A stretch of DNA of 64,000 nucleotides. Source: Escherichia phage ECD7. A program made the translations under genes and the position numbers. A model generated the notes under the pieces. The model saw only the letters and a list, made by a program, of their open reading frames with translations. It did not search any database and had not been told where the DNA came from. The DNA lies in the sequence record NC_041936.1. One strand, given 5' to 3'. Positions 20,453-34,007 of the stretch are shown here, one piece after another; within the stretch, counting starts at the first letter, position 1, and every line of letters starts with the position of its first letter.

Positions 20453-22504
20453 TTACATTTTAAATTTATCTGGCATTGCGTCTACAGATACCAGATCAGC
20501 GATAAGCTGACGTAGAGTTGCCTTATCTGCTTTCTTACGTTCGGTTTTAGCTTCGCTAATGAAGCTGGAGAAAGACAGGTCAGAAGCAGGTTTAACAACA
20601 CCCTCACGGATGAATGCATCACCGTCCGCGATCATCTCACCAGATTCTTGTAATGCTGCCAGTTCACTTTTGTTCATAATATGTGCCTCAATGTAATAAG
20701 TTTCTTGTGAATCCGTCGATGCCGTAGCACGAGTTACCGTATCAAAGGATAACACAACACCGCGAGGAAGTAAAATCTCGCATTCTTTGTAAGCAAATGC
20801 TTTGTTACCTACTGGCAATACAGGGATGTTTTCCGCGCCAGCGATAGAGAAAGCAACATTAGCGCCACCTTCACCGCGAGAGCCAGCCATAGAATCAACA
20901 CCAGCAACGGCACTAGCCACGTTTGCATTCCAGCCACCAAAAATATTAGGCGCAAGGGAAGTGCTCACATAGTTTTTAAAGTAAAACGCTTTTTGCTTAC
21001 GTGCAGTTTCCCACATTTGCGACCGGAAGTCCATACCACGATACAGAATAGTACCCGGATCAAGTTTAACACCATAGTTAGAGAAGGCATTATCCAGTGC
21101 ATCGCACATCTTGACCAATTCTTCTGGATCTGCGATTCCCTCAAACTCTTCCAGCTTGCGATCAGTTAGGAAGTTGTTCATATTGATGTATGCTGCATCG
21201 GCATATTCGCTCAACACAAAACCTTCCGCGCCCGGCAGATCAAGATCAATATCTGCCATCATTTCACCCATGTTGCTAGCAATTGCTTCAAACATACCGG
21301 ACGCAACATTACGAAGGGCATCGGTTTTAATCTGGGTGATATGACTACGCAGCATTTCAGCTTTTACATCTGCTGGCATAGACTGGTCTACTCGATCCAT
21401 TGCCAGGGCGGTGATCTTGTTTTCGAATACTTCCTCGCTCATGATTTCTTTTAAGCGTTTGATTGAGGCTGCGATAACTTCCGCAGACAACGGATCATAT
21501 TGATCCTGAACTTTTACCAGTTCGCTTACTGCGTATTTTGCATCGGCTTCGCTTTCAAAAATAGTACGCATGAAACCATAGCGAGTGATAATATCACTTG
21601 TCCAGTCATTCAGAGAACGGGCGGTTGAACGTTCTAAGGCTTGACGGTCAATCAGAGTATTAAACTGTTTCTTAGGTTCGGCTTCGGTGATATCTTCTTC
21701 CGGTTTAAGATTAATTTTTTCTGGATGATTCACGTAGTCGCTGTTATAGGTCGCTTGAGTTTTCAGCATTTCTTCTTTAGTCAAACGAGATTTAGCCGCT
21801 ACGCGTTGTTCTGCTTCCGCGTTTCGTTCTTCTTCTGACACAAGACTAGCCGCATACGCCTCATCTTTAGTCAGAGATTCACCAGTAGCCTTAGATACCC
21901 AGCGATCACCTAAATCACTTTCTACTTTAGTGAACAAGGATTCATCAAGTTTAATCCCTTTAATCTTATCAATCGCCATCCCGCGACGTTTGACAACAAC
22001 TAAAGCGATCTTTTTGCTGGTCATTACTTCCTGCTGGAATACTTCAAACTTCGGTGTACGACGCACCAAACGCTCTATAACGCGCTTAACCAGTTCGGTC
22101 TTACCTTTCATGCGGGATACGTTAAAACGGAACATAACAGCGTCTAATTGCGCTTTACGGGCTGTTTCCATAACCACATCAAAAGCACTTGCCATAACTG
22201 CAATCGGGTTATCACCTAGACCATTTTTAAGCTGTACAATACGACCGCTTTTGTTCATTTCACACAGTACAACGTGTGCGGTCTTGTCACCCATACGAAT
22301 AATTTTAGGTGTTTTGTTGGTGAAGTTGCAAAGACGGACAATCACATCTTTATCGCGTGTCTGTACTGCAAAAAGCTGTTTAGGATTCTGCTTAGGCTTT
22401 AAGCATTGTACCGGAGCAATACTGCCAAAGTTTTCTTCCTCTTCCGTCAACAGCCATTTCTCGAAAGATTCAATCATTAGATCGTCGATTTCTAAGTTAA
22501 ACAT
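20453..22504 (-). CDS. alt: Alt ADP-ribosyltransferase (packaged internal head protein)
   Basis: 683 aa (T4 Alt is 682); C-terminal ART motifs; position after gene 54 as in T4. Confidence 0.85.
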   Translation of the reverse strand: MFNLEIDDLMIESFEKWLLTEEEENFGSIAPVQCLKPKQNPKQLFAVQTRDKDVIVRLCNFTNKTPKIIRMGDKTAHVVLCEMNKSGRIVQLKNGLGDNPIAVMASAFDVVMETARKAQLDAVMFRFNVSRMKGKTELVKRVIERLVRRTPKFEVFQQEVMTSKKIALVVVKRRGMAIDKIKGIKLDESLFTKVESDLGDRWVSKATGESLTKDEAYAASLVSEEERNAEAEQRVAAKSRLTKEEMLKTQATYNSDYVNHPEKINLKPEEDITEAEPKKQFNTLIDRQALERSTARSLNDWTSDIITRYGFMRTIFESEADAKYAVSELVKVQDQYDPLSAEVIAASIKRLKEIMSEEVFENKITALAMDRVDQSMPADVKAEMLRSHITQIKTDALRNVASGMFEAIASNMGEMMADIDLDLPGAEGFVLSEYADAAYINMNNFLTDRKLEEFEGIADPEELVKMCDALDNAFSNYGVKLDPGTILYRGMDFRSQMWETARKQKAFYFKNYVSTSLAPNIFGGWNANVASAVAGVDSMAGSRGEGGANVAFSIAGAENIPVLPVGNKAFAYKECEILLPRGVVLSFDTVTRATASTDSQETYYIEAHIMNKSELAALQESGEMIADGDAFIREGVVKPASDLSFSSFISEAKTERKKADKATLRQLIADLVSVDAMPDKFKM

Positions 22505-22857: not shown

Positions 22858-23376
22858 TTAGTTATTTTTTAATTGCTCATCTTGCAATAGGGCAATCACA
22901 TGCTGGCGATGTTCTTCCGATTGAGGCACACCGAAAAAGTTTGTTTTGTAGAAATACTCTAATCGGTCTTCTCGTGTGCTCTCTTCCATCATGATCGCGG
23001 GTAGTCCGAGATTTCGGAAACGTCGCTTTTCTGCTGGCGTAAAATCACTGTAATACAGCATATAATCATCATTACCAGCAATGCTAAACTCATCCTTCAT
23101 GAAAGAGAATATTGCGTTTAAACGCTGTTTACCGTCCACGATTTCGATTTCATAGCGAGAGCCATCATCAATCTTAGCCATTGCGATAGCACCAACCGGA
23201 AAATCATTAATCAGGTTTTCGATAAACATACGTTTGTTTTCTGTGTCCCATACCAAAGGACGCTGATAATCTGGGTTCATGTTGATATAGCCATCTTCTA
23301 ACCATGCTTCGTAAACAGAGATGACAAAGTTTTTAGTATTGGTATAGTAACGGCGTTTAGGCGTTAAACGGTTCAT
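22858..23376 (-). CDS. DUF262 (ParB-like / GmrSD N-terminal domain) protein
   Basis: DYQRPLVW and IVDGKQRL motifs typical of DUF262; start at internal Met with AGGAG RBS. Confidence 0.55.
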   Translation of the reverse strand: MNRLTPKRRYYTNTKNFVISVYEAWLEDGYINMNPDYQRPLVWDTENKRMFIENLINDFPVGAIAMAKIDDGSRYEIEIVDGKQRLNAIFSFMKDEFSIAGNDDYMLYYSDFTPAEKRRFRNLGLPAIMMEESTREDRLEYFYKTNFFGVPQSEEHRQHVIALLQDEQLKNN

Positions 23377-23377
23377 A

Positions 23378-23707
23378 TTATAGTCTCCTGAATGGATCAT
23401 CACGTAAATCAATATCTTTTAAGAACTCATCCCATGAATGGCGGATATTGTTCTTAATTCTCCAGATAAGCGCAGGGATTGAACGCTCTCCCATCTGGAA
23501 GTAAGGATCATATGATCCGTATGCCCAATATGCTACTACAATTCCACAATCAGCGCAATAGTATTCTATTTCACTTGCTGGCGACCAAAGTCCATCAATA
23601 TGATCAGTGATCTTGCTTTCGATGTTATGGCTATGACAATCAGGGCAACGGATGCAATGACCTTGTTTATCGTAATTTGACGTTAGAGAATACTTAAACA
23701 ATCTCAT
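23378..23707 (-). CDS. zinc-ribbon protein (109 aa)
   Basis: CxxC...CxxC (CIRCPDC ... CADCG); TAATG coupling to the methyltransferase-like gene. Confidence 0.5.
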   Translation of the reverse strand: MRLFKYSLTSNYDKQGHCIRCPDCHSHNIESKITDHIDGLWSPASEIEYYCADCGIVVAYWAYGSYDPYFQMGERSIPALIWRIKNNIRHSWDEFLKDIDLRDDPFRRL

Positions 23708-24423
23708 TATAGATCCTTATTGGCTTCAAATACTGCCTTTGCGAATCCTCGCGGCGTAAGTGACCTGATAGTCTTTGTTCTGGTTCCTTTCCCGCCTAGC
23801 TTAGAATGCTGTTTGCTGTACCCTTTATTAATCTGCAACGGTTTCTTTTCTGGCATTATAAAGCCTTGTCCGGTCCATAAGCAAGTCTTTTTCGGGTACA
23901 TATCACGGGCGGCAATATACTCAGGAAACGTAGGATGCTTATCATCTTCCGGCAAATAACCGCCATATTCCCACGGATGGAACATGTAATCAGGCTTACG
24001 CCACATACTAGAGATAACGCTTACAGGATTCTCTATCATATAGGGAACTCCTAGCCATTCACCCAAATAAGCGGTTATTTTAGCTGCCCGTACATCATGA
24101 ACTTGAATCAATGGTCCTTGTTCTCGTTTCTTTCGTTCAAAGTGTGCAGCGCCACTAACAGCTAAATTGGTGCACGGTGGGAATGCAAATATAATATCCG
24201 GTTTCCCCCATTCAAGGTCCATTGCTCTTTCCAGCCAGTTCAAATCAATCCAGGTGTTTACATAGGTAATGTTTGGATGTTCAAATCTGGTATTATACTT
24301 TTTGTATGTACCGTGGTCGGCGTCATCCGCATTAAAGCAGACTACCTTATGACCTGCTTTAGCCCATTCTAGCCCCATTATCCCCGATCCGTCAAAGTTG
24401 CAGAATATTAATTTTTGTTTCAT
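23707..24423 (-). CDS. cytosine-5 methyltransferase-like protein (238 aa)
   Basis: N-terminal FxGxG (FCNFDGSGIMG), catalytic-type FPPC, and ENP motif in the order of C5-MTase motifs I, IV, VI; short for a DNA MTase. Confidence 0.45.
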   Translation of the reverse strand: MKQKLIFCNFDGSGIMGLEWAKAGHKVVCFNADDADHGTYKKYNTRFEHPNITYVNTWIDLNWLERAMDLEWGKPDIIFAFPPCTNLAVSGAAHFERKKREQGPLIQVHDVRAAKITAYLGEWLGVPYMIENPVSVISSMWRKPDYMFHPWEYGGYLPEDDKHPTFPEYIAARDMYPKKTCLWTGQGFIMPEKKPLQINKGYSKQHSKLGGKGTRTKTIRSLTPRGFAKAVFEANKDL

Positions 24424-28991: not shown

Positions 28992-29048
28992 AATATTATC
29001 CTCAATTTGCGGGAGAGTATTACCCCTCCCAATGATTGTTATGTTATA

Positions 29049-29369
29049 TCACACAAAATGGCGTGTCAATGCTTCTTTTGCGGTTCCGCTAAGACTTTCG
29101 ATCTCGCCTGGCATAACATCAACCGCCAGAACTTCTACAACATCCTCGGACCCTAACCAGTGAGTATGGCCTTTGTAGAACTTGATAACCAGACTACCTT
29201 CCTCGTCCCATTTAACGCTATCGCTAGCCCACCACACATCACCGTCGATAAAGTTGATGTAAAGCACACTACGCAACATTGAATTAATTACTTTCAATAC
29301 TGCGCCTTTCATCTCTTCCACGGTATGGTCTTCCATTTTGAAGACCATACCTACCTGAACTTTTGCCAT
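29049..29369 (-). CDS. HxHW-family small protein, member 6 (106 aa)
   Basis: VLYINFIDGDV...GHTHWL...VLAVDV. Confidence 0.55.
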   Translation of the reverse strand: MAKVQVGMVFKMEDHTVEEMKGAVLKVINSMLRSVLYINFIDGDVWWASDSVKWDEEGSLVIKFYKGHTHWLGSEDVVEVLAVDVMPGEIESLSGTAKEALTRHFV

Positions 29370-29386
29370 TTAGTCACCTCTCTTTA

Positions 29387-29566
29387 TTACATAACAATCA
29401 CGCCAGCCGTTGAAAGTTGATGTTTCAACTGAGCATTTTCTGCTACCGTCAAATCAATGATTTCTTGTGACGCTGCAATCATATATCCATTGGTGATATT
29501 GTTTTGCATCAGTTCAATGGTTTCTTCGTTGTAGCGGATTTTAGCGATGATTTCGTTGAAGTTCAT
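29387..29566 (-). CDS. small hypothetical protein (59 aa)
   Basis: ATG with GGAGAATC RBS-like context; below the track cutoff. Confidence 0.35.
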   Translation of the reverse strand: MNFNEIIAKIRYNEETIELMQNNITNGYMIAASQEIIDLTVAENAQLKHQLSTAGVIVM

Positions 29567-29600
29567 GATTGATTCTCCTAGTTCGTTTCGGTATGTGTGT

Positions 29601-29630
29601 AGTATAGGGGATCTCCCGATCCCCTGTCAA
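29601..29630 (-). promoter_or_regulatory. sigma70-like early promoter with palindromic spacer
   Basis: minus TTGACA - GGGGATCGGGAGATCCCC - TATACT. Confidence 0.55.
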
Positions 29631-29639
29631 CAACTTTTT

Positions 29640-29951
29640 TTAAAGTTTTTCCATGATAACGGTCATAATTACATCTTCTGCGCGAGCGGTCAGATTATCA
29701 GCGTCAGCATGTGGGCGGTTGGTTGTTACAGAGATAACACCGTTGCGCACTGGTTTGATATTGATATCAAGATGATCCGCGAAACGTTCGCCAGTTACAG
29801 AATGAATTTTGGTGTTAAATTCTTTTGCCAGTGCCTTGCGAACTTCACGAATCAGGGTAGCGTTTTTCAGTTGGTTCTCCGCGCTCATGGTCTTCTGGGT
29901 GTTCATGGTTCCGTCGAAGTCAATCATTGGCAGCGTTACGATGTATTTCAT
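29640..29951 (-). CDS. small hypothetical protein (103 aa), paralog of 26347-26634
   Basis: shared AKEFNTK segment. Confidence 0.5.
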   Translation of the reverse strand: MKYIVTLPMIDFDGTMNTQKTMSAENQLKNATLIREVRKALAKEFNTKIHSVTGERFADHLDINIKPVRNGVISVTTNRPHADADNLTARAEDVIMTVIMEKL

Positions 29952-29996
29952 TTTTGATTCTCCGTTTAAGAAAGTGTGTTTCGTTTTGATGTGTGT

Positions 29997-30025
29997 AGTA
30001 TAGGGGATACGTGATCCCCTGTCAA
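29997..30025 (-). promoter_or_regulatory. sigma70-like early promoter with palindromic spacer
   Basis: minus TTGACA - GGGGATCACGTATCCCC - TATACT. Confidence 0.55.
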
Positions 30026-30038
30026 CAACTTTTTTGAA

Positions 30039-30515
30039 TTATTTTTCTTGATGCTCGCGCTCGTACTTTTCGAAATAAAATTCTACTGGCTGGTCATGAA
30101 TTGACAGCAAGCCAAAGCGTTTAGCCGCTCGCAATCCCATATTGCGCTGAATGTACTTCTGGAAGTTCTCGCGTATACACTTACGCCAGTATTCTAAGCC
30201 CATACAGCTTTTATAAAGATTGCATTGTACACACGCCGGATTCATGTTATCAAGTATATCATGTTCCGGTTTATGCATTCCTACAACCTTATACTTCCAC
30301 GACCCATCATCATTACGGGCAATTCGTCCATTTTCATCATAGACTACCTTTGAGCGTCGCAATACTGGTTTGATATGGTCTGCGTGCCAGCGATCCCCTA
30401 GTTCCTCGCCACAATAGGCACAACGCCCACCGTATTTCATTTTCAGGATCTGGCGTTGCTCTTTCTTTGACAATTTTTTAGGTTTAGGGGCTTTCGCCCC
30501 TTCATTATCACACAT
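30039..30515 (-). CDS. HNH endonuclease (158 aa)
   Basis: CAYCGEELGDRWHADHIKP ... CVQCNLYK HNH zinc-finger nuclease motif; overlaps the 3' end of ligase by 8 nt. Confidence 0.65.
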   Translation of the reverse strand: MCDNEGAKAPKPKKLSKKEQRQILKMKYGGRCAYCGEELGDRWHADHIKPVLRRSKVVYDENGRIARNDDGSWKYKVVGMHKPEHDILDNMNPACVQCNLYKSCMGLEYWRKCIRENFQKYIQRNMGLRAAKRFGLLSIHDQPVEFYFEKYEREHQEK

Positions 30516-32010
30516 CGAATACCTCTTTTACTGTATTTGCAGTGGTCTTGTCGTAGCGAATACGTTTGATGATTGGGAGAAATAAAGAGAACTCCGGTTC
30601 ATCTTCTTTACGTGATTTGCTGCGGATATACCCGTTGCATGTCATCTCAATGACTTTTCCAATCAGGTTATGACGGTCAGTCCATAACATTTCTCGGTCG
30701 AGTTCATTTCGACGATCGAACGGAATTACACGTTCAGTACCATCATCACCTTTTTCGGTTGTAGTGTCGGTTAATCCCGATCCGGTGTTAGTCATCATTC
30801 GTCCGCACGCACTACGGACAGTAAAACCGCCTACCTTATTGGGGTCTTTACTATGCGGATATACATCAACAATTTCCGCGTCGAAGTCAATCACTTCTTT
30901 AAATTTAACCTGATCTTTACTACGGCGATCTTCAAATACACCATGTAAATTTTTAAGGATAATACCTTCTAAGCCCATGTTTACATAGCGATGATATACT
31001 TCGCGAGCTTCATCGATATTGTTAACTACAGTGTTTTCGATTATCTGAACACGAGGATCGTTAAGTTCTTCAACAATCTGTTTTAGCTCTTCGAATCGAT
31101 CTTTATATTGCTTCGTTGCTTTCTCGTTTCCGTAATACACATCACGGTCGATAACATCCCAGACAGTGTAAACAATACATTGGGCTTCTTCTTTTGGAAT
31201 AGTTCCTTTCAGTGATTTGTTGAGGATACCATTTCCGGTCTGACGATCTGCAACAACGGATTCTTTCACCGCTTCCGCTACTGGCGTTAATGGCATTTCC
31301 TCTTCTTCAAATATCCATGACAGAGTACCATCATAAACGCTCTCAACGAAGTTCTGCGCTGGTGTTTGCGAAAGGGTAGGCATATATACCAATTCGCCAT
31401 CTAGAACAATTCCACGGCCTCGTAGACTCTCTAAAACCGCAAACAAATCATCAAGCCCTTGATAGGTATTACCTGAACGGGTATAGATTGCTAATGTTTC
31501 CCCGTCAATATCAGCCATACCACGAGCGCCATCGCTTTTAAGTTGTGCATACGCCGGATATTTGATATTGGCAATGGTCTTATCAGAACATGACGATGCA
31601 AGGTGGCACGGCTGCTGGGGGATCAGTTTCTTCCATACCTTGTTTGCAGTGGTAGCGGAACAACCGCATTCCAGGTCACGATTCAGGACCATCATTGCAA
31701 CTTTAGCATCATCTTCTGACAAGCAAGTCAGAGTATCGGTAACTAGCTGTAATGCTGCATTACCAGTTACTTGACGTGTGGCAAGTTTATTTTTAAAGAC
31801 TTGTAATGCACCGGATAAAGACAATACAGACGAATAGCGCGATGGTTTATCGTATTTCTTTACGCCAAACGTAACCTGTTTGCAATATGCCAGATAAAAG
31901 CATTCTTTCAGTGTTTCATTGCTTGCAGATTCTTTCAGGATCTTTTCTTTCAGCGATGTTTTGTCTGTTGCTGCAAGCTGATTAATGATATTAAGAATTG
32001 ACATTTTCAC
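30508..32010 (-). CDS. 30: ATP-dependent DNA ligase gp30
   Basis: 500 aa; GLEGIILKN, KGTIPKEEAQC, FKEVIDFDAEIVDVYPH colinear with recalled T4 DNA ligase. Confidence 0.9.
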   Translation of the reverse strand: MKMSILNIINQLAATDKTSLKEKILKESASNETLKECFYLAYCKQVTFGVKKYDKPSRYSSVLSLSGALQVFKNKLATRQVTGNAALQLVTDTLTCLSEDDAKVAMMVLNRDLECGCSATTANKVWKKLIPQQPCHLASSCSDKTIANIKYPAYAQLKSDGARGMADIDGETLAIYTRSGNTYQGLDDLFAVLESLRGRGIVLDGELVYMPTLSQTPAQNFVESVYDGTLSWIFEEEEMPLTPVAEAVKESVVADRQTGNGILNKSLKGTIPKEEAQCIVYTVWDVIDRDVYYGNEKATKQYKDRFEELKQIVEELNDPRVQIIENTVVNNIDEAREVYHRYVNMGLEGIILKNLHGVFEDRRSKDQVKFKEVIDFDAEIVDVYPHSKDPNKVGGFTVRSACGRMMTNTGSGLTDTTTEKGDDGTERVIPFDRRNELDREMLWTDRHNLIGKVIEMTCNGYIRSKSRKEDEPEFSLFLPIIKRIRYDKTTANTVKEVFDV

Positions 32011-32470
32011 CTCGTTTTGTTAAACGTTCACGAATATCATTGAGGATACTACAAAATTCTGATTCGGTCAATATGGTCTTTAACGGATCAGTTCCACCTA
32101 TACTATGACGTAATTTCTTATTTCCGGTAGCGAGTAATGCTTTACAAAATTCTGGGTTATTCCGTGCCATCGTAACAAATGCCAGGTGCACCAGTCTGTA
32201 ATAATGCTCACTCATTCGATGAATCGGGCGACCCTGAAAATATAGCATGTGATTCTCAATCTTTTCAGTCCTTCCGGTTCTTTTTGCCTTGCCACCGTGC
32301 ATCAAAAAGATTTCTCTTTGCTTTTCTGGATTCTTGAATCTTAATCCCTGTAAAAATCCTTCTGTGCTGTTAATATCGCAACCAAATAGACGGAATGGTC
32401 TTTTATTGAAGTTGCTCAATTCACCCGATGGATAAGGTCCACCCGCATAGATATCAATTTCAGAAGTCAT
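31991..32470 (-). CDS. NADAR (YbiA/DUF1768)-like protein
   Basis: ELSNFNKRPFRLFGCDINSTEGFLQGLRF and ALLATGNKKL resemble NADAR-family signatures. Confidence 0.5.
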   Translation of the reverse strand: MTSEIDIYAGGPYPSGELSNFNKRPFRLFGCDINSTEGFLQGLRFKNPEKQREIFLMHGGKAKRTGRTEKIENHMLYFQGRPIHRMSEHYYRLVHLAFVTMARNNPEFCKALLATGNKKLRHSIGGTDPLKTILTESEFCSILNDIRERLTKRGENVNS

Positions 32471-32624
32471 TGAAACTAATCTCGCTAATCATAGAGAACG
32501 GATCATAATCGTCATGAGGAATATCGATAGTAATCGAATGAGGATTTACCCATACACCAAACTGGTCTTCTTCGGTGAATACTTCGGTATGGATTTCTTG
32601 GATGTTTACATTCATAGTTTTCAT
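32460..32624 (-). CDS. small hypothetical protein (54 aa)
   Basis: ORF below the track cutoff, overlapping the NADAR gene start. Confidence 0.3.
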   Translation of the reverse strand: MKTMNVNIQEIHTEVFTEEDQFGVWVNPHSITIDIPHDDYDPFSMISEISFNDF

Positions 32625-32706
32625 AATAAAAATTCCTTAATAATCAATAACTTACAAAATCATATAGCCAAAATATAGCGGGATTATTACCCGCCGTTTA
32701 AAATCA

Positions 32707-33030
32707 TTAACCGTAAACTACCACAATATTCTGTTTGTGCGTTACAGTCCATTTCAGGTCGATCTCTTCTTCCTTCTTAACGCCGTTAATAACGTCTGGA
32801 TGAGGAACTTTATTAAGTTTCCCATGAGGAAGCAATACAGTCTTGCCCAGCAATTCTTTATCAACGTTATCACCGATATCAATAATCTTACCGACTAAAG
32901 GAATCTCTCCCATAGTTCGTTTTTGCTCGATGATAATACCAAAATCGCTCTTTACTTCGGTCCCTGCGCTTTCCGCTTTAGCTTCAATGATCACATAGTC
33001 ACCAAGTGCTTTAGGAGTTTTAACGGTCAT
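32707..33030 (-). CDS. 31: co-chaperonin GroES analogue gp31
   Basis: 107 aa; GDYVIIEA...IIIEQKRTMGEIP...KVPHPDV pattern parallels recalled T4 gp31. Confidence 0.75.
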   Translation of the reverse strand: MTVKTPKALGDYVIIEAKAESAGTEVKSDFGIIIEQKRTMGEIPLVGKIIDIGDNVDKELLGKTVLLPHGKLNKVPHPDVINGVKKEEEIDLKWTVTHKQNIVVVYG

Positions 33031-33066
33031 AATTTTCTTACCTCTTCAATTCATCTCAATAGTAAA

Positions 33067-33684
33067 TTATTTATATTTCGCGACCTTTGGATTTCGCCGC
33101 AGACCGGAATGTATTTGCGCTATACAACAATAAGAAACATTAAACATATCAGCTATAATTTGCTTCTTAACTTTTCCTTTAAGCCGCATTATTTCTTCGA
33201 CTTGCGCATTTGTCAGTTTTGCCCGTGAGTGGTTTTCACCGACATTGTTATTGAGTCCAGTTCTAAATGAATGTCTCATATTTTCTAGTAAGGTTACTAT
33301 TTCTAGATTCCACACATAATTGCAGGTTTTTACACCATTGATGTGATTAACCTCAAGTCCGGTAACGTCTCCTAGAAATGCATTTGCTACAAGTCGATGT
33401 ATCTTTTCGGCTTTAACTGAGATTTTACCATTGTCTTTTTGTTTTGACAATGTTGAATAATAATATCCATATCGGTCTAAAATTGGTTTTATTATTTTAC
33501 CAGCCCGTTTTTGTTTTACGAGCTTAATATTACCGGGAGAAACTTCTCTATAAAATTCGATACTTCGGTCAATAGATCTCAATCTACCATAATTAGAGAT
33601 TTCATACCACGGATAACCTACAGCTTGTCTCCATTCTTCCGGCGCTGGTAATACGATATTATCATCTTTTGTTTCCATTGTCAA
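33067..33684 (-). CDS. HNH homing endonuclease (NUMOD4 + HNH_3 type)
   Basis: WYEISNYGRLRS and EVNHINGVK...NLE motifs; freestanding between 31 and cd. Confidence 0.65.
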   Translation of the reverse strand: MTMETKDDNIVLPAPEEWRQAVGYPWYEISNYGRLRSIDRSIEFYREVSPGNIKLVKQKRAGKIIKPILDRYGYYYSTLSKQKDNGKISVKAEKIHRLVANAFLGDVTGLEVNHINGVKTCNYVWNLEIVTLLENMRHSFRTGLNNNVGENHSRAKLTNAQVEEIMRLKGKVKKQIIADMFNVSYCCIAQIHSGLRRNPKVAKYK

Positions 33685-34007
33685 CTGCCACCGTAAATTT
33701 CAACGATCTGCGCTGGAGTCAGCCCGTCTACATTAATCAGACTATCAAGCCCAATACTACGGAAACCTTCAACTGCAATTTCATATACTGGCAAAGATGT
33801 TTCTGATTCTTTACGCGGTTTTTCAACATTAGGAACTAACCACTTTTCGTATGTTTCGAAAGGCATCAGTGCCGGATCTCGCGTAGCGATCATATCTCGG
33901 ACAGTACCATCTTTCTTAGTAAACTGCAAAGAGTGAGTACCGACAGAAAACATTTTCTTTAGTGCTTCACGAAGTGCGATATTATCAATTTGTTCAGTCA
34001 TTATCAA
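33681..34007 (-). CDS. hypothetical protein (108 aa)
   Basis: ORF coupled to the cd operon. Confidence 0.45.
   Translation of the reverse strand: MIMTEQIDNIALREALKKMFSVGTHSLQFTKKDGTVRDMIATRDPALMPFETYEKWLVPNVEKPRKESETSLPVYEIAVEGFRSIGLDSLINVDGLTPAQIVEIYGGS

What the first reader, a model, noticed from the sequence alone, without database searches (positions are those of the whole stretch)
30039..30515. Freestanding HNH endonuclease overlapping the 3' end of DNA ligase
A 158 aa HNH protein overlaps the ligase stop by 8 nt. Together with the second HNH homing endonuclease at 33067-33684, it marks this interval as a hotspot for selfish-element insertion. The flanking host genes (30, 31, cd) may carry the corresponding cleavage sites.
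Basis: partly seen in the sequence, partly recalled or inferred. Interest (0 to 1): 0.4.

Follow-up and report, generated by a model that had tools for sequence, protein, structure and literature searches.

The report
Fixed HNH nuclease gene after ligase
The ORF is a real, intact HNH nuclease gene already annotated in RB49-like (Krischvirus) phages, but it is a fixed, strongly conserved gene of the whole genus rather than a wandering selfish element; only the second HNH gene nearby behaves like a mobile homing endonuclease.

Summary
On the minus strand, 30039..30515 encodes a 158-aa protein whose ATG overlaps the stop of DNA ligase (gene 30) by 8 nt. A Shine-Dalgarno AAGAGG lies 6 nt upstream.

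The window is a Krischvirus (RB49-like T4-type phage) and the ORF is RB49 ORF212, listed as a putative mobile HNH element since 2006. Its catalytic set is intact: Cys4 zinc site, D46-H47, N90, C95xxC98-N99. An AlphaFold model (pLDDT 93) matches Cas9-HNH, McrA and the GVE2/Gme phage HNH nickases.

The "selfish element" reading is only partly supported.
- HNH1 is full length in all 57 Krischvirus records, always fused to the ligase end.
- A metagenomic relative keeps the same synteny (ligase 71%, HNH 70% identity).
- Its pN/pS is 0.026, against 0.031 for ligase.

Elsewhere the family is a mobile cassette, with empty sites in Sashavirus-like phages.

The second HNH (33067..33678, NUMOD4+HNH_3) does behave as a homing endonuclease:
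- present in 10 of 57 records and frameshifted in two;
- a clean ~620-nt insertion;
- a linked 76-82%-identity tract in gene 31.

Other local variation is PeSL cassette shuffling. Ordinary and already known; interest is low.

The parts
30039..30515 (-). HNH1 CDS, 158 aa (= RB49 ORF212 / RB49p212). Layout: disordered basic N-tail (residues 1-17), helix 18-28, Cys4-zinc His-Me finger core (C32xxC35, D46-H47, N90, C95xxC98-N99) carrying a ~35-aa beta-hairpin insertion (residues ~54-88), and a C-terminal helical domain (107-156) ending in the conserved FYFEK motif.
30508..32010 (-). Gene 30, ATP-dependent DNA ligase. The mechanical ORF starts at GTG 32010; RB49 annotation uses the ATG 6 nt downstream at 32004. 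Its last 8 nt overlap the HNH1 start.
30508..30527 (-). Translational-coupling junction: SD AAGAGG (30527-30522), HNH1 ATG (30515-30513) and ligase stop TGA (30510-30508). It is identical in all 11 Krischvirus loci compared.
30486..30501 (-). Stem-loop AGGGGC-GAAA-GCCCCU inside HNH1 codons 5-10. It lies within a 24-nt segment that the ~70%-diverged lineage L023 lacks.
29952..30038 (-). PeSL-type intergenic cassette ending the ligase-HNH1 unit: TTGACA (30025-30020), stem-loop GGGGATCACGTATCCCC (30019-30003), TATACT (30002-29997), then the SD and ATG of ORF210.
   Evidence: annotated promoter in GEC-3S; PMC2839356
33067..33678 (-). HNH2 CDS (NUMOD4 + HNH_3), about 203 aa from ATG 33678. The mechanical ORF starts at TTG 33684 (205 aa).
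33074..33693 (-). The ~620-nt HNH2 insertion relative to HNH2-free Krischvirus genomes, lying between gene 31.1 and gene 31. It changes the 31.1 end from EIY* to EIYGGS*, and its 3' end regenerates the TATAAATA box.
33068..33075 (-). T4-type late-promoter box TATAAATA upstream of gene 31. In HNH2-free genomes the same box overlaps the 31.1 stop codon.
32802..33050 (-). Divergent tract (5' leader plus first ~230 nt of gene 31) linked to HNH2. It is 76-90% identical to HNH2-free genomes but 98-100% identical to HNH2-bearing ones. Gene 31 carries 27-40 nt differences (37-40 in most) but only 4-5 aa changes.

Best explanation
HNH1 is an intact, co-expressed gene for a small stand-alone HNH (His-Me finger) DNA endonuclease, identical in kind to RB49 ORF212.

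Shown by the analyses:
- It belongs to a family of ~110-220-aa single-domain phage and prophage proteins (PHROG 2118).
- All metal-, zinc- and base-activating residues are invariant.
- In other phage groups the family behaves as a mobile gene cassette.
- In the Krischvirus lineage it sits at one fixed place, fused by an 8-nt overlap to the end of gene 30. No sigma70-like promoter match was found between the 30.3/ligase boundary and its ATG, and a PeSL stem-loop/promoter follows it.
- It is present and full length in every sequenced member, and in a ~70%-diverged relative.
- It evolves under purifying selection as strong as that on ligase.

Inferred:
- It was captured once by the ancestor of this lineage, probably as a freestanding homing-type HNH gene from a siphophage-type replication module.
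- It is now a selectively maintained (domesticated or at least beneficial) nuclease, not an element that is currently homing.
- It is made in early infection from the ORF215-30.3-30 transcript by translational coupling to ligase.
- Chemistry, by analogy with Cas9-HNH (D839/H840/N863): H47 activates water, D46 and N99 hold one Mg2+/Mn2+, N90 braces the hairpin and Cys4 binds Zn2+. The product would be nicks or double-strand breaks with 3'-OH and 5'-phosphate ends, as for the Gme and GVE2 HNH nickases.
- Its target is unknown. The most likely candidates are DNA of co-infecting related phages (exclusion), or a site or structure in phage or host DNA.
For: - ORF, overlap and SD.
- Pfam HNH above cut-off and PHROG 2118 at 8e-55.
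- Invariant C32/C35/D46/H47/N90/C95/C98/N99 in 64 homologues.
- 57 of 57 Krischvirus records hold a single-piece hit at 97.5-100% aa identity and 99-100% coverage, always under or next to 'DNA ligase'.
- Identical junction in 11 loci.
- pN/pS is 0.026 for HNH1, 0.031 for ligase and 0.046 for gp30.3; 30 of 34 variable HNH1 sites are third codon positions.
- Metagenome contigs L023/L024 show ligase 71% and HNH 70% identity, the same order and a TAATG overlap.
- T4-like phages with 41-44% identical ligase lack it.
- Family mobility elsewhere: PJ16 and Bas82 have an empty or replaced site where Solent/Sasha/Sergei carry the gene. The 37P2 copy is 95% nt identical in unrelated Klebsiella phages with unmatched flanks.
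- Family size: 157 clusters at E<=1e-30, almost all single-domain proteins of 110-220 aa.
Against: - No biochemical or genetic data exist for this protein or any close homologue; the literature only lists it as a putative HEG (PMC1524935, PMC2993671).
- Purifying selection and universality are also compatible with a homing endonuclease that swept the genus and is kept intact by recurrent inter-phage competition.
- The sampled Krischvirus isolates are very close (about 96-98% nt), so '57 of 57' is fewer independent observations than it sounds. About six records are GenBank/RefSeq duplicates.
- GC3 of HNH1 (44%) is still above that of its neighbours (31-38%), hinting at foreign origin.
- The Pfam hit is split, with no single domain stretch passing on its own, because of the ~35-aa insertion.
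Confidence: 0.6

Rival explanations
1. HNH1 is, a still-active selfish freestanding homing endonuclease. It cuts the ligase-proximal region of HNH1-free relatives and is copied in by recombinational repair. On this view it simply reached fixation in the sampled genus.
For: - The family is sporadic and cassette-like in other phages.
- A Morganella T4-like phage carries a 49%-identical copy at a different locus.
- Placement at the very end of a conserved gene, with overlapping stop and start, is typical of T4 seg/mob genes (established knowledge).
- The literature files it among putative HEGs.
- Its GC3 differs from that of its neighbours.
Against: - No empty site was found in 57 records, one IMG/VR contig or the metagenome scan.
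- The ligase-HNH pair is retained at ~70% divergence, and both genes have diverged equally.
- pN/pS is 0.026, equal to ligase.
- No decayed copies exist, whereas 2 of 10 HNH2 copies are frameshifted.
- No divergent flanking tract like the one beside HNH2 was seen.
Confidence: 0.25
2. HNH1 is a packaging cofactor of the HK97 gp74 / GVE2 HNH type, stimulating terminase cutting.
For: - Structural similarity to the GVE2 and Gme HNH nickases.
- In phage Bas77 a 42%-identical homologue lies about 0.8 kb upstream of the large terminase gene.
Against: - In Krischvirus it sits in the early ligase operon, far from genes 16/17.
- T4-type terminase gp17 has its own nuclease and packages by headful (established knowledge).
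- Most homologues examined lie in replication or recombination modules: next to polymerase/helicase, primase/ParB, RecT or methyltransferases.
Confidence: 0.05
3. HNH1 is an endonuclease VII-like junction-resolving enzyme. It has the same size, the same Cys4 + DH...CxxCN layout, and weak hits to 'endonuclease VII' PHROGs.
For: PHROG 1035 and 2914 ('endonuclease VII') hit at E=1e-09 and 6e-07. The length is 158 aa against 157 aa for gp49.
Against: - RB49 has a bona fide gene 49 with the Endonuclease_7 and dimerisation Pfam domains.
- HNH1 matches neither domain.
- BLASTP between HNH1 and RB49 gp49 gives E=0.008 over 33 residues only.
Confidence: 0.03

Closest known systems
RB49 ORF212c / RB49p212 and its orthologues (phi1p212, EpJSE_00219, BN201_0214), annotated 'HNH endonuclease'
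   Same: 97.5-100% aa identity, the same position and the same 8-nt overlap with gene 30. Listed as a putative mobile HNH element in PMC1524935 and counted as 'other HNH' in Table 5 of PMC2993671.
   Different: Nothing substantive. This window's copy has the 158-aa ...EHQEK C-terminus of the ORF211-free variants; RB49 has the 157-aa ...ENKE form.
Small phage HNH nicking endonucleases with solved structures: Gme HNH (4H9D) and GVE2 HNH (5H0O)
   Different: No detectable sequence match to any PDB chain (best E=0.19). HNH1 carries a ~35-aa hairpin insertion and a conserved ~50-aa C-terminal helical domain with the FYFEK motif. Its last metal ligand is Asn (DH-N-N), not His. It is not next to terminase.
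T4-type freestanding homing endonucleases (Mob / I-HmuI-like HNH_3, Seg GIY-YIG)
   Same: HNH2 fits this class: NUMOD4+HNH_3 domains, sporadic distribution, decayed copies, intergenic insertion and a linked divergent flank. HNH1 shares only the 'freestanding nuclease gene tucked behind a conserved gene' layout.
   Different: HNH1 is in a different HNH subfamily (PF01844, not PF13392) and has no NUMOD, IENR1 or AP2 DNA-binding module. It is fixed, and it is under strong purifying selection.
T4 endonuclease VII (gp49)
   Same: The same superfamily motif pattern (CxxC ... DH ... CxxCN) and nearly the same length.

Membership tests
HNH / His-Me finger endonuclease (Pfam PF01844) | Profile match above the curated cut-off | tested here: met
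   27.0 bits against a cut-off of 21.4 for the whole protein. The hit is split by a ~35-aa insertion, so only residues 32-53 align as one stretch. The precomputed Pfam label PF01844 also appears on most homologues.
HNH / His-Me finger endonuclease (Pfam PF01844) | Catalytic His (general base), preceding Asp, structural Asn, terminal His/Asn metal ligand and two CxxC zinc ligand pairs | tested here: met
HNH / His-Me finger endonuclease (Pfam PF01844) | Divalent-metal-dependent DNA cleavage | not testable with these tools
   Needs purified protein.
Homing endonuclease gene (functional class) | Sporadic presence or absence among close relatives at a fixed site | tested here: not met
   HNH1 is present in 57 of 57 Krischvirus records and in one IMG/VR contig, and the synteny is kept at ~70% divergence. 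By contrast this feature is met for HNH2 (10 of 57) and for HNH1-family members in Sashavirus/Nonanavirus.
Homing endonuclease gene (functional class) | Flanking co-conversion or divergent tract linked to the element | tested here: not met
   Ligase shows a similar overall identity (96.7-98.7%) to every genome compared, with no element-linked class of alleles; its identity profile along the gene was not computed. No comparison with an empty site is possible. The feature is met for HNH2: gene 31 is 76-82% identical in a tract starting beside the insertion.
Homing endonuclease gene (functional class) | Degeneration of copies after fixation (the HEG life cycle) | tested here: not met
   All 57 copies are single-piece and full length, with pN/pS 0.026. 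HNH2 is frameshifted in G37-3 and FL20.
Homing endonuclease gene (functional class) | Cleaves the cognate element-free allele and is copied in by repair | not testable with these tools
   Needs cleavage assays and phage crosses.
Endonuclease VII (gp49) family | Pfam Endonuclease_7 (PF02945) plus the dimerisation domain (PF09124) | tested here: not met
   HNH1 hits neither domain. RB49 gp49 hits both. Pairwise BLASTP gives E=0.008 over 33 residues.
Terminase-associated HNH (HK97 gp74 type) | Gene adjacent to the terminase, portal or cos region | tested here: not met
   It lies between ligase and the hyperplastic ORFan region. Only 1 of about 10 examined homologue contexts (Bas77) is near a terminase.

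The most novel reading that the evidence does not exclude
HNH1 is a domesticated nuclease that serves the phage, and specifically the 'helper protein' that Arbiol et al. (PMC2839356) speculated might act on the conserved GGGG...CCCC stem-loops of PeSL cassettes. By nicking them it would start the recombination that shuffles ORFan cassettes and makes PeSL mini-circles. Circumstantial points: it is universal in the genus where PeSLs were described. It sits exactly at the border between the conserved ligase module and the PeSL-rich hyperplastic region, where three different downstream arrangements occur among 12 genomes. Its own 5' end carries a PeSL-like GGGGC-GAAA-GCCCC hairpin on a 24-nt insertion. 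Nothing tested here supports a direct link.
Probability: 0.04. Interest if true: 0.6.

Novelty: already known. Interest (0 to 1): 0.17.

Why it matters
It matters little for the gene as such. It has been annotated as an HNH endonuclease in RB49, phi1, JSE and dozens of other Krischvirus genomes, and has been listed as a putative mobile element since 2006.

The modest added value is the contrast within about 3 kb between two HNH genes. One shows every population signature of a homing endonuclease: sporadic distribution, decaying copies and a linked divergent flank in gene 31. The other, from a family that is mobile elsewhere, has become a fixed gene conserved as strongly as ligase.

This makes ORF212 a reasonable candidate for studying domestication of a selfish nuclease in a T4-type phage. 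It also cautions against labelling every freestanding phage HNH ORF a homing endonuclease.

Tried and rejected
1. Endonuclease VII substitute: rejected. RB49 has a true gene 49, and HNH1 lacks the Endonuclease_7 domains.
2. Link to a phage methyltransferase (an R-M-like pair). The Solent homologue lies 2 genes from a phrog_757 MTase, and the window has a 62%-identical MTase at 23707-24423. However, that MTase is absent from all other homologue loci held. Rejected as a general association.
3. Search for an empty site.
   - blastn and tblastn of the phage collection found none.
   - IMG/VR with the ligase gave one close contig, HNH1-positive, and four distant ones without it.
   - The metagenome pattern scan on the ligase 3' end gave two contigs. 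One is HNH1-positive; the other is cut 31 nt from the match and therefore uninformative.
4. Sequence search of the PDB: nothing better than E=0.19.
5. NCBIfam gave only a sub-threshold retron-HNH hit. PADLOC gave only weak generic HNH hits (PtuB, Cas9). There is no defence-system assignment.
6. Own promoter: the scan found no sigma70-like site between 32043 and the HNH1 ATG and no TATAAATA in the ligase gene. The total number of promoter-like matches in the region equals the shuffle expectation.
7. The hairpin just after the start codon has z = -2.4 only. It is suggestive but not demonstrated to be regulatory.

Full report
**1. What is in the sequence**

The ORF lies on the minus strand at 30039..30515 and encodes 158 aa. 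Its ATG (30515-30513) lies inside the last codons of the 500-aa ORF 30508..32010, whose stop TGA is at 30510-30508. The two reading frames therefore share 8 nt. A Shine-Dalgarno AAGAGG (30527-30522) lies 6 nt upstream of the ATG, inside the ligase coding end.

The upstream ORF is an ATP-dependent DNA ligase: Pfam DNA_ligase_A_M at 3e-22 and PHROG 114 at 3e-141, and it aligns with T4 ligase 6DT1 up to ...ANT..VF.

**2. Where the window comes from**

The interval 29000-33800 is 96-98% identical to 57 records of the genus Krischvirus (RB49, phi1, JSE, GEC-3S, KFS-EC and others), which are T4-type Straboviridae. Along the minus strand the gene order is: pseT, cd.2, cd, 31.1, [HNH2], 31, ORF215, 30.3, 30, HNH1, then a string of small ORFans.

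HNH1 is RB49p212 / RB49ORF212c, annotated 'HNH endonuclease' in RefSeq.
- Nolan et al. 2006 list RB49ORF212c under 'putative mobile DNA elements' with a Pfam HNH hit (PMC1524935).
- Petrov et al. 2010, Table 5, count one 'other HNH' putative HEG in RB49 and in phi-1 (PMC2993671).

**3. Is it an intact HNH nuclease?**

The evidence says yes.
- Pfam HNH (PF01844) scores 27.0 bits against a cut-off of 21.4. The match is split because ~35 residues are inserted between the two halves of the motif.
- PHROG 2118 'HNH endonuclease' gives 8e-55 over residues 4-157.
- A search of 5.8 billion proteins gave 180 relatives, mostly 120-140 aa and 35-50% identical.
- In an alignment of 64 of them the invariant residues include C32, C35, D46, H47, N90, C95, C98 and N99. 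Also invariant are R21, R53, K102, R111 and a C-terminal F146-x-F148-E149.

This is the Cys4-zinc, DH...N...CxxC-N form of the His-Me finger.

AlphaFold2 run with this alignment gives mean pLDDT 93 and pTM 0.81. Structure matches are:
- Foldseek: the top hit is the Gme HNH nickase 4H9D.
- Plain sequence search of the PDB finds nothing significant.

A profile search of 1.84 billion representatives finds 157 clusters at E<=1e-30 and 1539 at E<=1e-10. Nearly all are stand-alone proteins of 110-220 aa.

**4. Is it a sporadic selfish element here?**

It is not.
- tblastn finds it in 57 records at 97.5-100% identity. Every hit is a single piece covering 99-100% of the query and lies under or beside 'DNA ligase'.
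- A blastn of ligase end + HNH1 + downstream finds the same 57 Krischvirus records and no record with a ligase end but no HNH1.
- The junction sequence is identical in the 11 Krischvirus loci compared.

Across the window plus 10 fetched genomes, pooled Nei-Gojobori values are as follows.

| Gene | pS | pN | pN/pS |
|---|---|---|---|
| HNH1 | 0.092 | 0.0024 | 0.026 |
| Ligase (gene 30) | - | - | 0.031 |
| gp30.3 | - | - | 0.046 |

In HNH1, 30 of 34 variable sites are third codon positions.

Two short metagenome contigs (L023, L024) carry a 70%-identical HNH1 directly after a ligase that is 71% identical over 246 residues. The stop and start overlap (TAATG), and a hairpin plus promoter follows. 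The pair has therefore been inherited together while both genes diverged equally.

T4-like contigs whose ligase is 41-44% identical have no HNH1 homologue near it. Among Straboviridae in the phage collection, only a Morganella phage has a copy (49% identity), and at a different locus. The simplest history is a single capture at the end of gene 30 in the ancestor of the Krischvirus lineage, followed by retention under selection.

**5. The family is mobile elsewhere**

Homologues sit in replication or recombination modules of 32-62-kb phages and prophage-like elements:
- between DNA polymerase and helicase (eiAU);
- near a recombinase (Bcep176);
- beside a nucleotide kinase (37P2);
- between a GTP-binding-domain ORF and ParB (Solent);
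- after an N6/N4 methyltransferase next to an integrase;
- near RecT;
- once about 0.8 kb upstream of a terminase (Bas77).

Several copies overlap the stop of the preceding gene by 1-4 nt.

Two observations show mobility.
- In Sashavirus/Nonanavirus phages, Solent, Sasha and Sergei carry the gene. PJ16 (94-96% identical flanks) has an empty 72-nt spacer at the site, and Bas82 has a different 231-nt ORF there.
- The 37P2 copy occurs at 95% nt identity in unrelated Klebsiella phages and at 85% in coliphage HK225, with no matching flanks.

An ancestral homing or cassette life style is therefore plausible. It simply is not what the gene is doing in the sampled Krischvirus population.

**6.

HNH2 (33067..33678 from the ATG) has NUMOD4 and HNH_3 domains and hits a PADLOC 'homing endonuclease' model.
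- It occurs in 10 of the 57 records and is broken into two pieces in G37-3 and FL20.
- Other Krischvirus genomes carry ~35%-identical paralogues at other loci.

Alignment of four HNH2-bearing and seven HNH2-free genomes defines the insertion:
- HNH2-free genomes read GAAATTTA^TAAATAATTCATC...
- HNH2-bearing genomes read GAAATTTA[CGGTGGCAG ... ~620 nt ... CGCGAAATA]TAAATAATTTAC...

The insert spans window ~33074-33693. It lengthens gene 31.1 by three codons (EIY* becomes EIYGGS*). Its own 3' end rebuilds the T4-type late box TATAAATA (33068-33075) that overlaps the 31.1 stop in HNH2-free genomes.

Immediately downstream, the leader and first ~230 nt of gene 31 (about 33050-32802) are only 76-90% identical between HNH2-bearing and HNH2-free genomes. 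The background is 96-100%, and among HNH2-bearing genomes the tract is 98-100% identical. Gene 31 carries 27-40 nt differences (37-40 in most HNH2-free genomes) but only 4-5 amino-acid changes. JK32 is recombinant within the tract.

This is the classical picture of a HEG that arrived with, or selected for, a divergent cleavage-resistant flank. Gene 31 is therefore the likely home of the HNH2 target, which is inference. cd and 31.1 show no such tract.

HNH2 has 35% GC (GC3 26%) against 40.7% for the window. HNH1 has 43.6% GC (GC3 44%).

**7. The 'hotspot' idea**

Downstream of HNH1 three arrangements occur among 12 genomes:
- PeSL + ORF210 (this window, phi1, GEC-3S);
- ORF211 + ORF210 (RB49, JSE, E26, G37-3, KMB43, KFS-EC);
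- PeSL + ORF209 (JK32, Makalu_002, the IMG/VR contig).

The ORF211 boundary falls inside the last 16 nt of HNH1, giving 157-aa ...ENKE versus 158-aa ...EHQEK ends. In the ORF211 form, the HNH1 end supplies ORF211's AAGGAG ribosome-binding site.

The intergenic 29952-30038 has TTGACA (30025-30020), the stem-loop GGGGATCACGTATCCCC, and TATACT (30002-29997). This is a 'promoter-early stem-loop' (PeSL) as defined experimentally for RB49/phi1. Recombination between PeSLs explains exactly these ORFan indels, including ORF211 and ORF210 (PMC2839356).

The interval is thus variable, but only the HNH2 polymorphism is attributable to a homing endonuclease.

**8. How HNH1 most likely works**

Shown:
- It has an intact active site and zinc site.
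- It is fused to the ligase cistron with a good ribosome-binding site.
- The scan finds no sigma70-like or late-box match between 32043 and its ATG.
- A PeSL stem-loop lies directly downstream.

Inferred:
- It is transcribed early with ORF215-30.3-30 and translated by coupling to ligase.
- H47 acts as general base. D46 and N99 bind one Mg2+/Mn2+, by analogy with Cas9 D839/H840/N863. N90 braces the beta-hairpin and Cys4 binds Zn2+.
- It nicks or cuts DNA, leaving 3'-OH and 5'-P ends, like the Gme and GVE2 enzymes.
- The conserved basic residues (R21, R53, K102, R111, R129) and the C-terminal helical domain provide DNA binding or dimerisation.

The target and the benefit to the phage are unknown. 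I favour a maintained function, either exclusion of co-infecting relatives or a role in phage DNA transactions, over ongoing homing. I put this at about 0.6 against 0.25.

**9. Rivals tested**

- Endo VII substitute: rejected. RB49 has gene 49 with both Endonuclease_7 domains, and HNH1 has neither.
- Packaging HNH: unlikely, given the gene's location and T4-type packaging.
- Methyltransferase partner: not general.
- Defence or NCBIfam models: only sub-threshold generic HNH hits.

**10. Verdict**

This is a correct observation of a known, annotated gene. It is wrong, or at least unsupported, in treating HNH1 as a sporadic insertion with definable boundaries. Novelty: already known. Interest: low.

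Noticed in passing
window 33068-33693 (-): The HNH2 insertion sits inside the TATAAATA late-promoter box that overlaps the 31.1 stop codon in HNH2-free genomes. The 3' end of the insert (...GAAATA) regenerates the box, so gene 31 keeps a late-promoter motif about 45 nt upstream of its ATG.
   Followed up: partly
window 32802-33050 (-), gene 31 5' part: A tract of 76-90% identity to HNH2-free Krischvirus genomes against a 96-100% background, almost all synonymous (27-40 nt, 4-5 aa differences in gene 31). It is 98-100% identical among HNH2-bearing genomes, and JK32 is recombinant inside it. This is a likely co-conversion tract or resistance allele for HNH2.
   Followed up: yes
L011 (phage G37-3) 1840-2444; phage FL20 (H229): HNH2 is frameshifted into two ORFs in G37-3 and matches in two pieces in FL20. 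These look like decaying copies of the mobile endonuclease.
   Followed up: partly
window 30486-30509 (-): A 24-nt segment (codons 3-10 of HNH1, DNEGAKAP) is absent from the ~70%-diverged lineage L023. It forms a GGGGC-GAAA-GCCCC hairpin 11 nt after the ATG (z = -2.4) and resembles PeSL GGGG...CCCC stems. It might damp translation of the nuclease.
   Followed up: partly
window 29952-30038 (-) and 29601-29630 (-): PeSL-type cassettes: TTGACA, 17-18 nt, TATACT. The first has a GGGG..CCCC stem-loop between the hexamers, whose loop sequence differs between genomes while the stem is kept.
   Followed up: partly
window 30039-30054 (-); L003 5462-5826: The boundary of the ORF211 indel (an RB49-type gene with a hydrophobic N-terminus, MFFLFIYILFVFLVGMYA...) lies in the last 16 nt of HNH1. 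ORF211-bearing genomes have a 157-aa HNH1 ending ENKE, whose AAGGAG doubles as ORF211's ribosome-binding site.
   Followed up: partly
window 23707-24423 (-): A 238-aa ORF hits phrog_757 'DNA methyltransferase' (E=8e-91) and is 62% identical to the Sashavirus Solent 'C-5 cytosine methylase'. It has no Pfam hit.
   Followed up: partly
window 22858-23412 (-) and 20453-22504 (-): A 184-aa ORF carries a GmrSD_N (DUF262/ParB-like) domain (6e-20). A 683-aa ORF carries an ADP-ribosyltransferase exoenzyme domain (2e-09).
   Followed up: no
window 32304-32353 (-), gene 30.3: A 50-nt block of gene 30.3 is only 82-88% identical to all ten other Krischvirus genomes, while the flanks are 94-100%. This appears to be a window-specific variant patch.
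   Followed up: no
window 32004-32010 (-): The mechanical ligase ORF starts at GTG 32010. Annotated orthologues (1497 nt) start at the ATG 6 nt downstream.
   Followed up: no
L021 (Klebsiella phage 37P2) 2486-2866: This HNH1-family gene is 95% nt identical in unrelated Klebsiella phages (RCIP0114, Kp4882-1 and others) and 85% identical in coliphage HK225, with no flank similarity. This is gene-sized horizontal transfer.
   Followed up: partly
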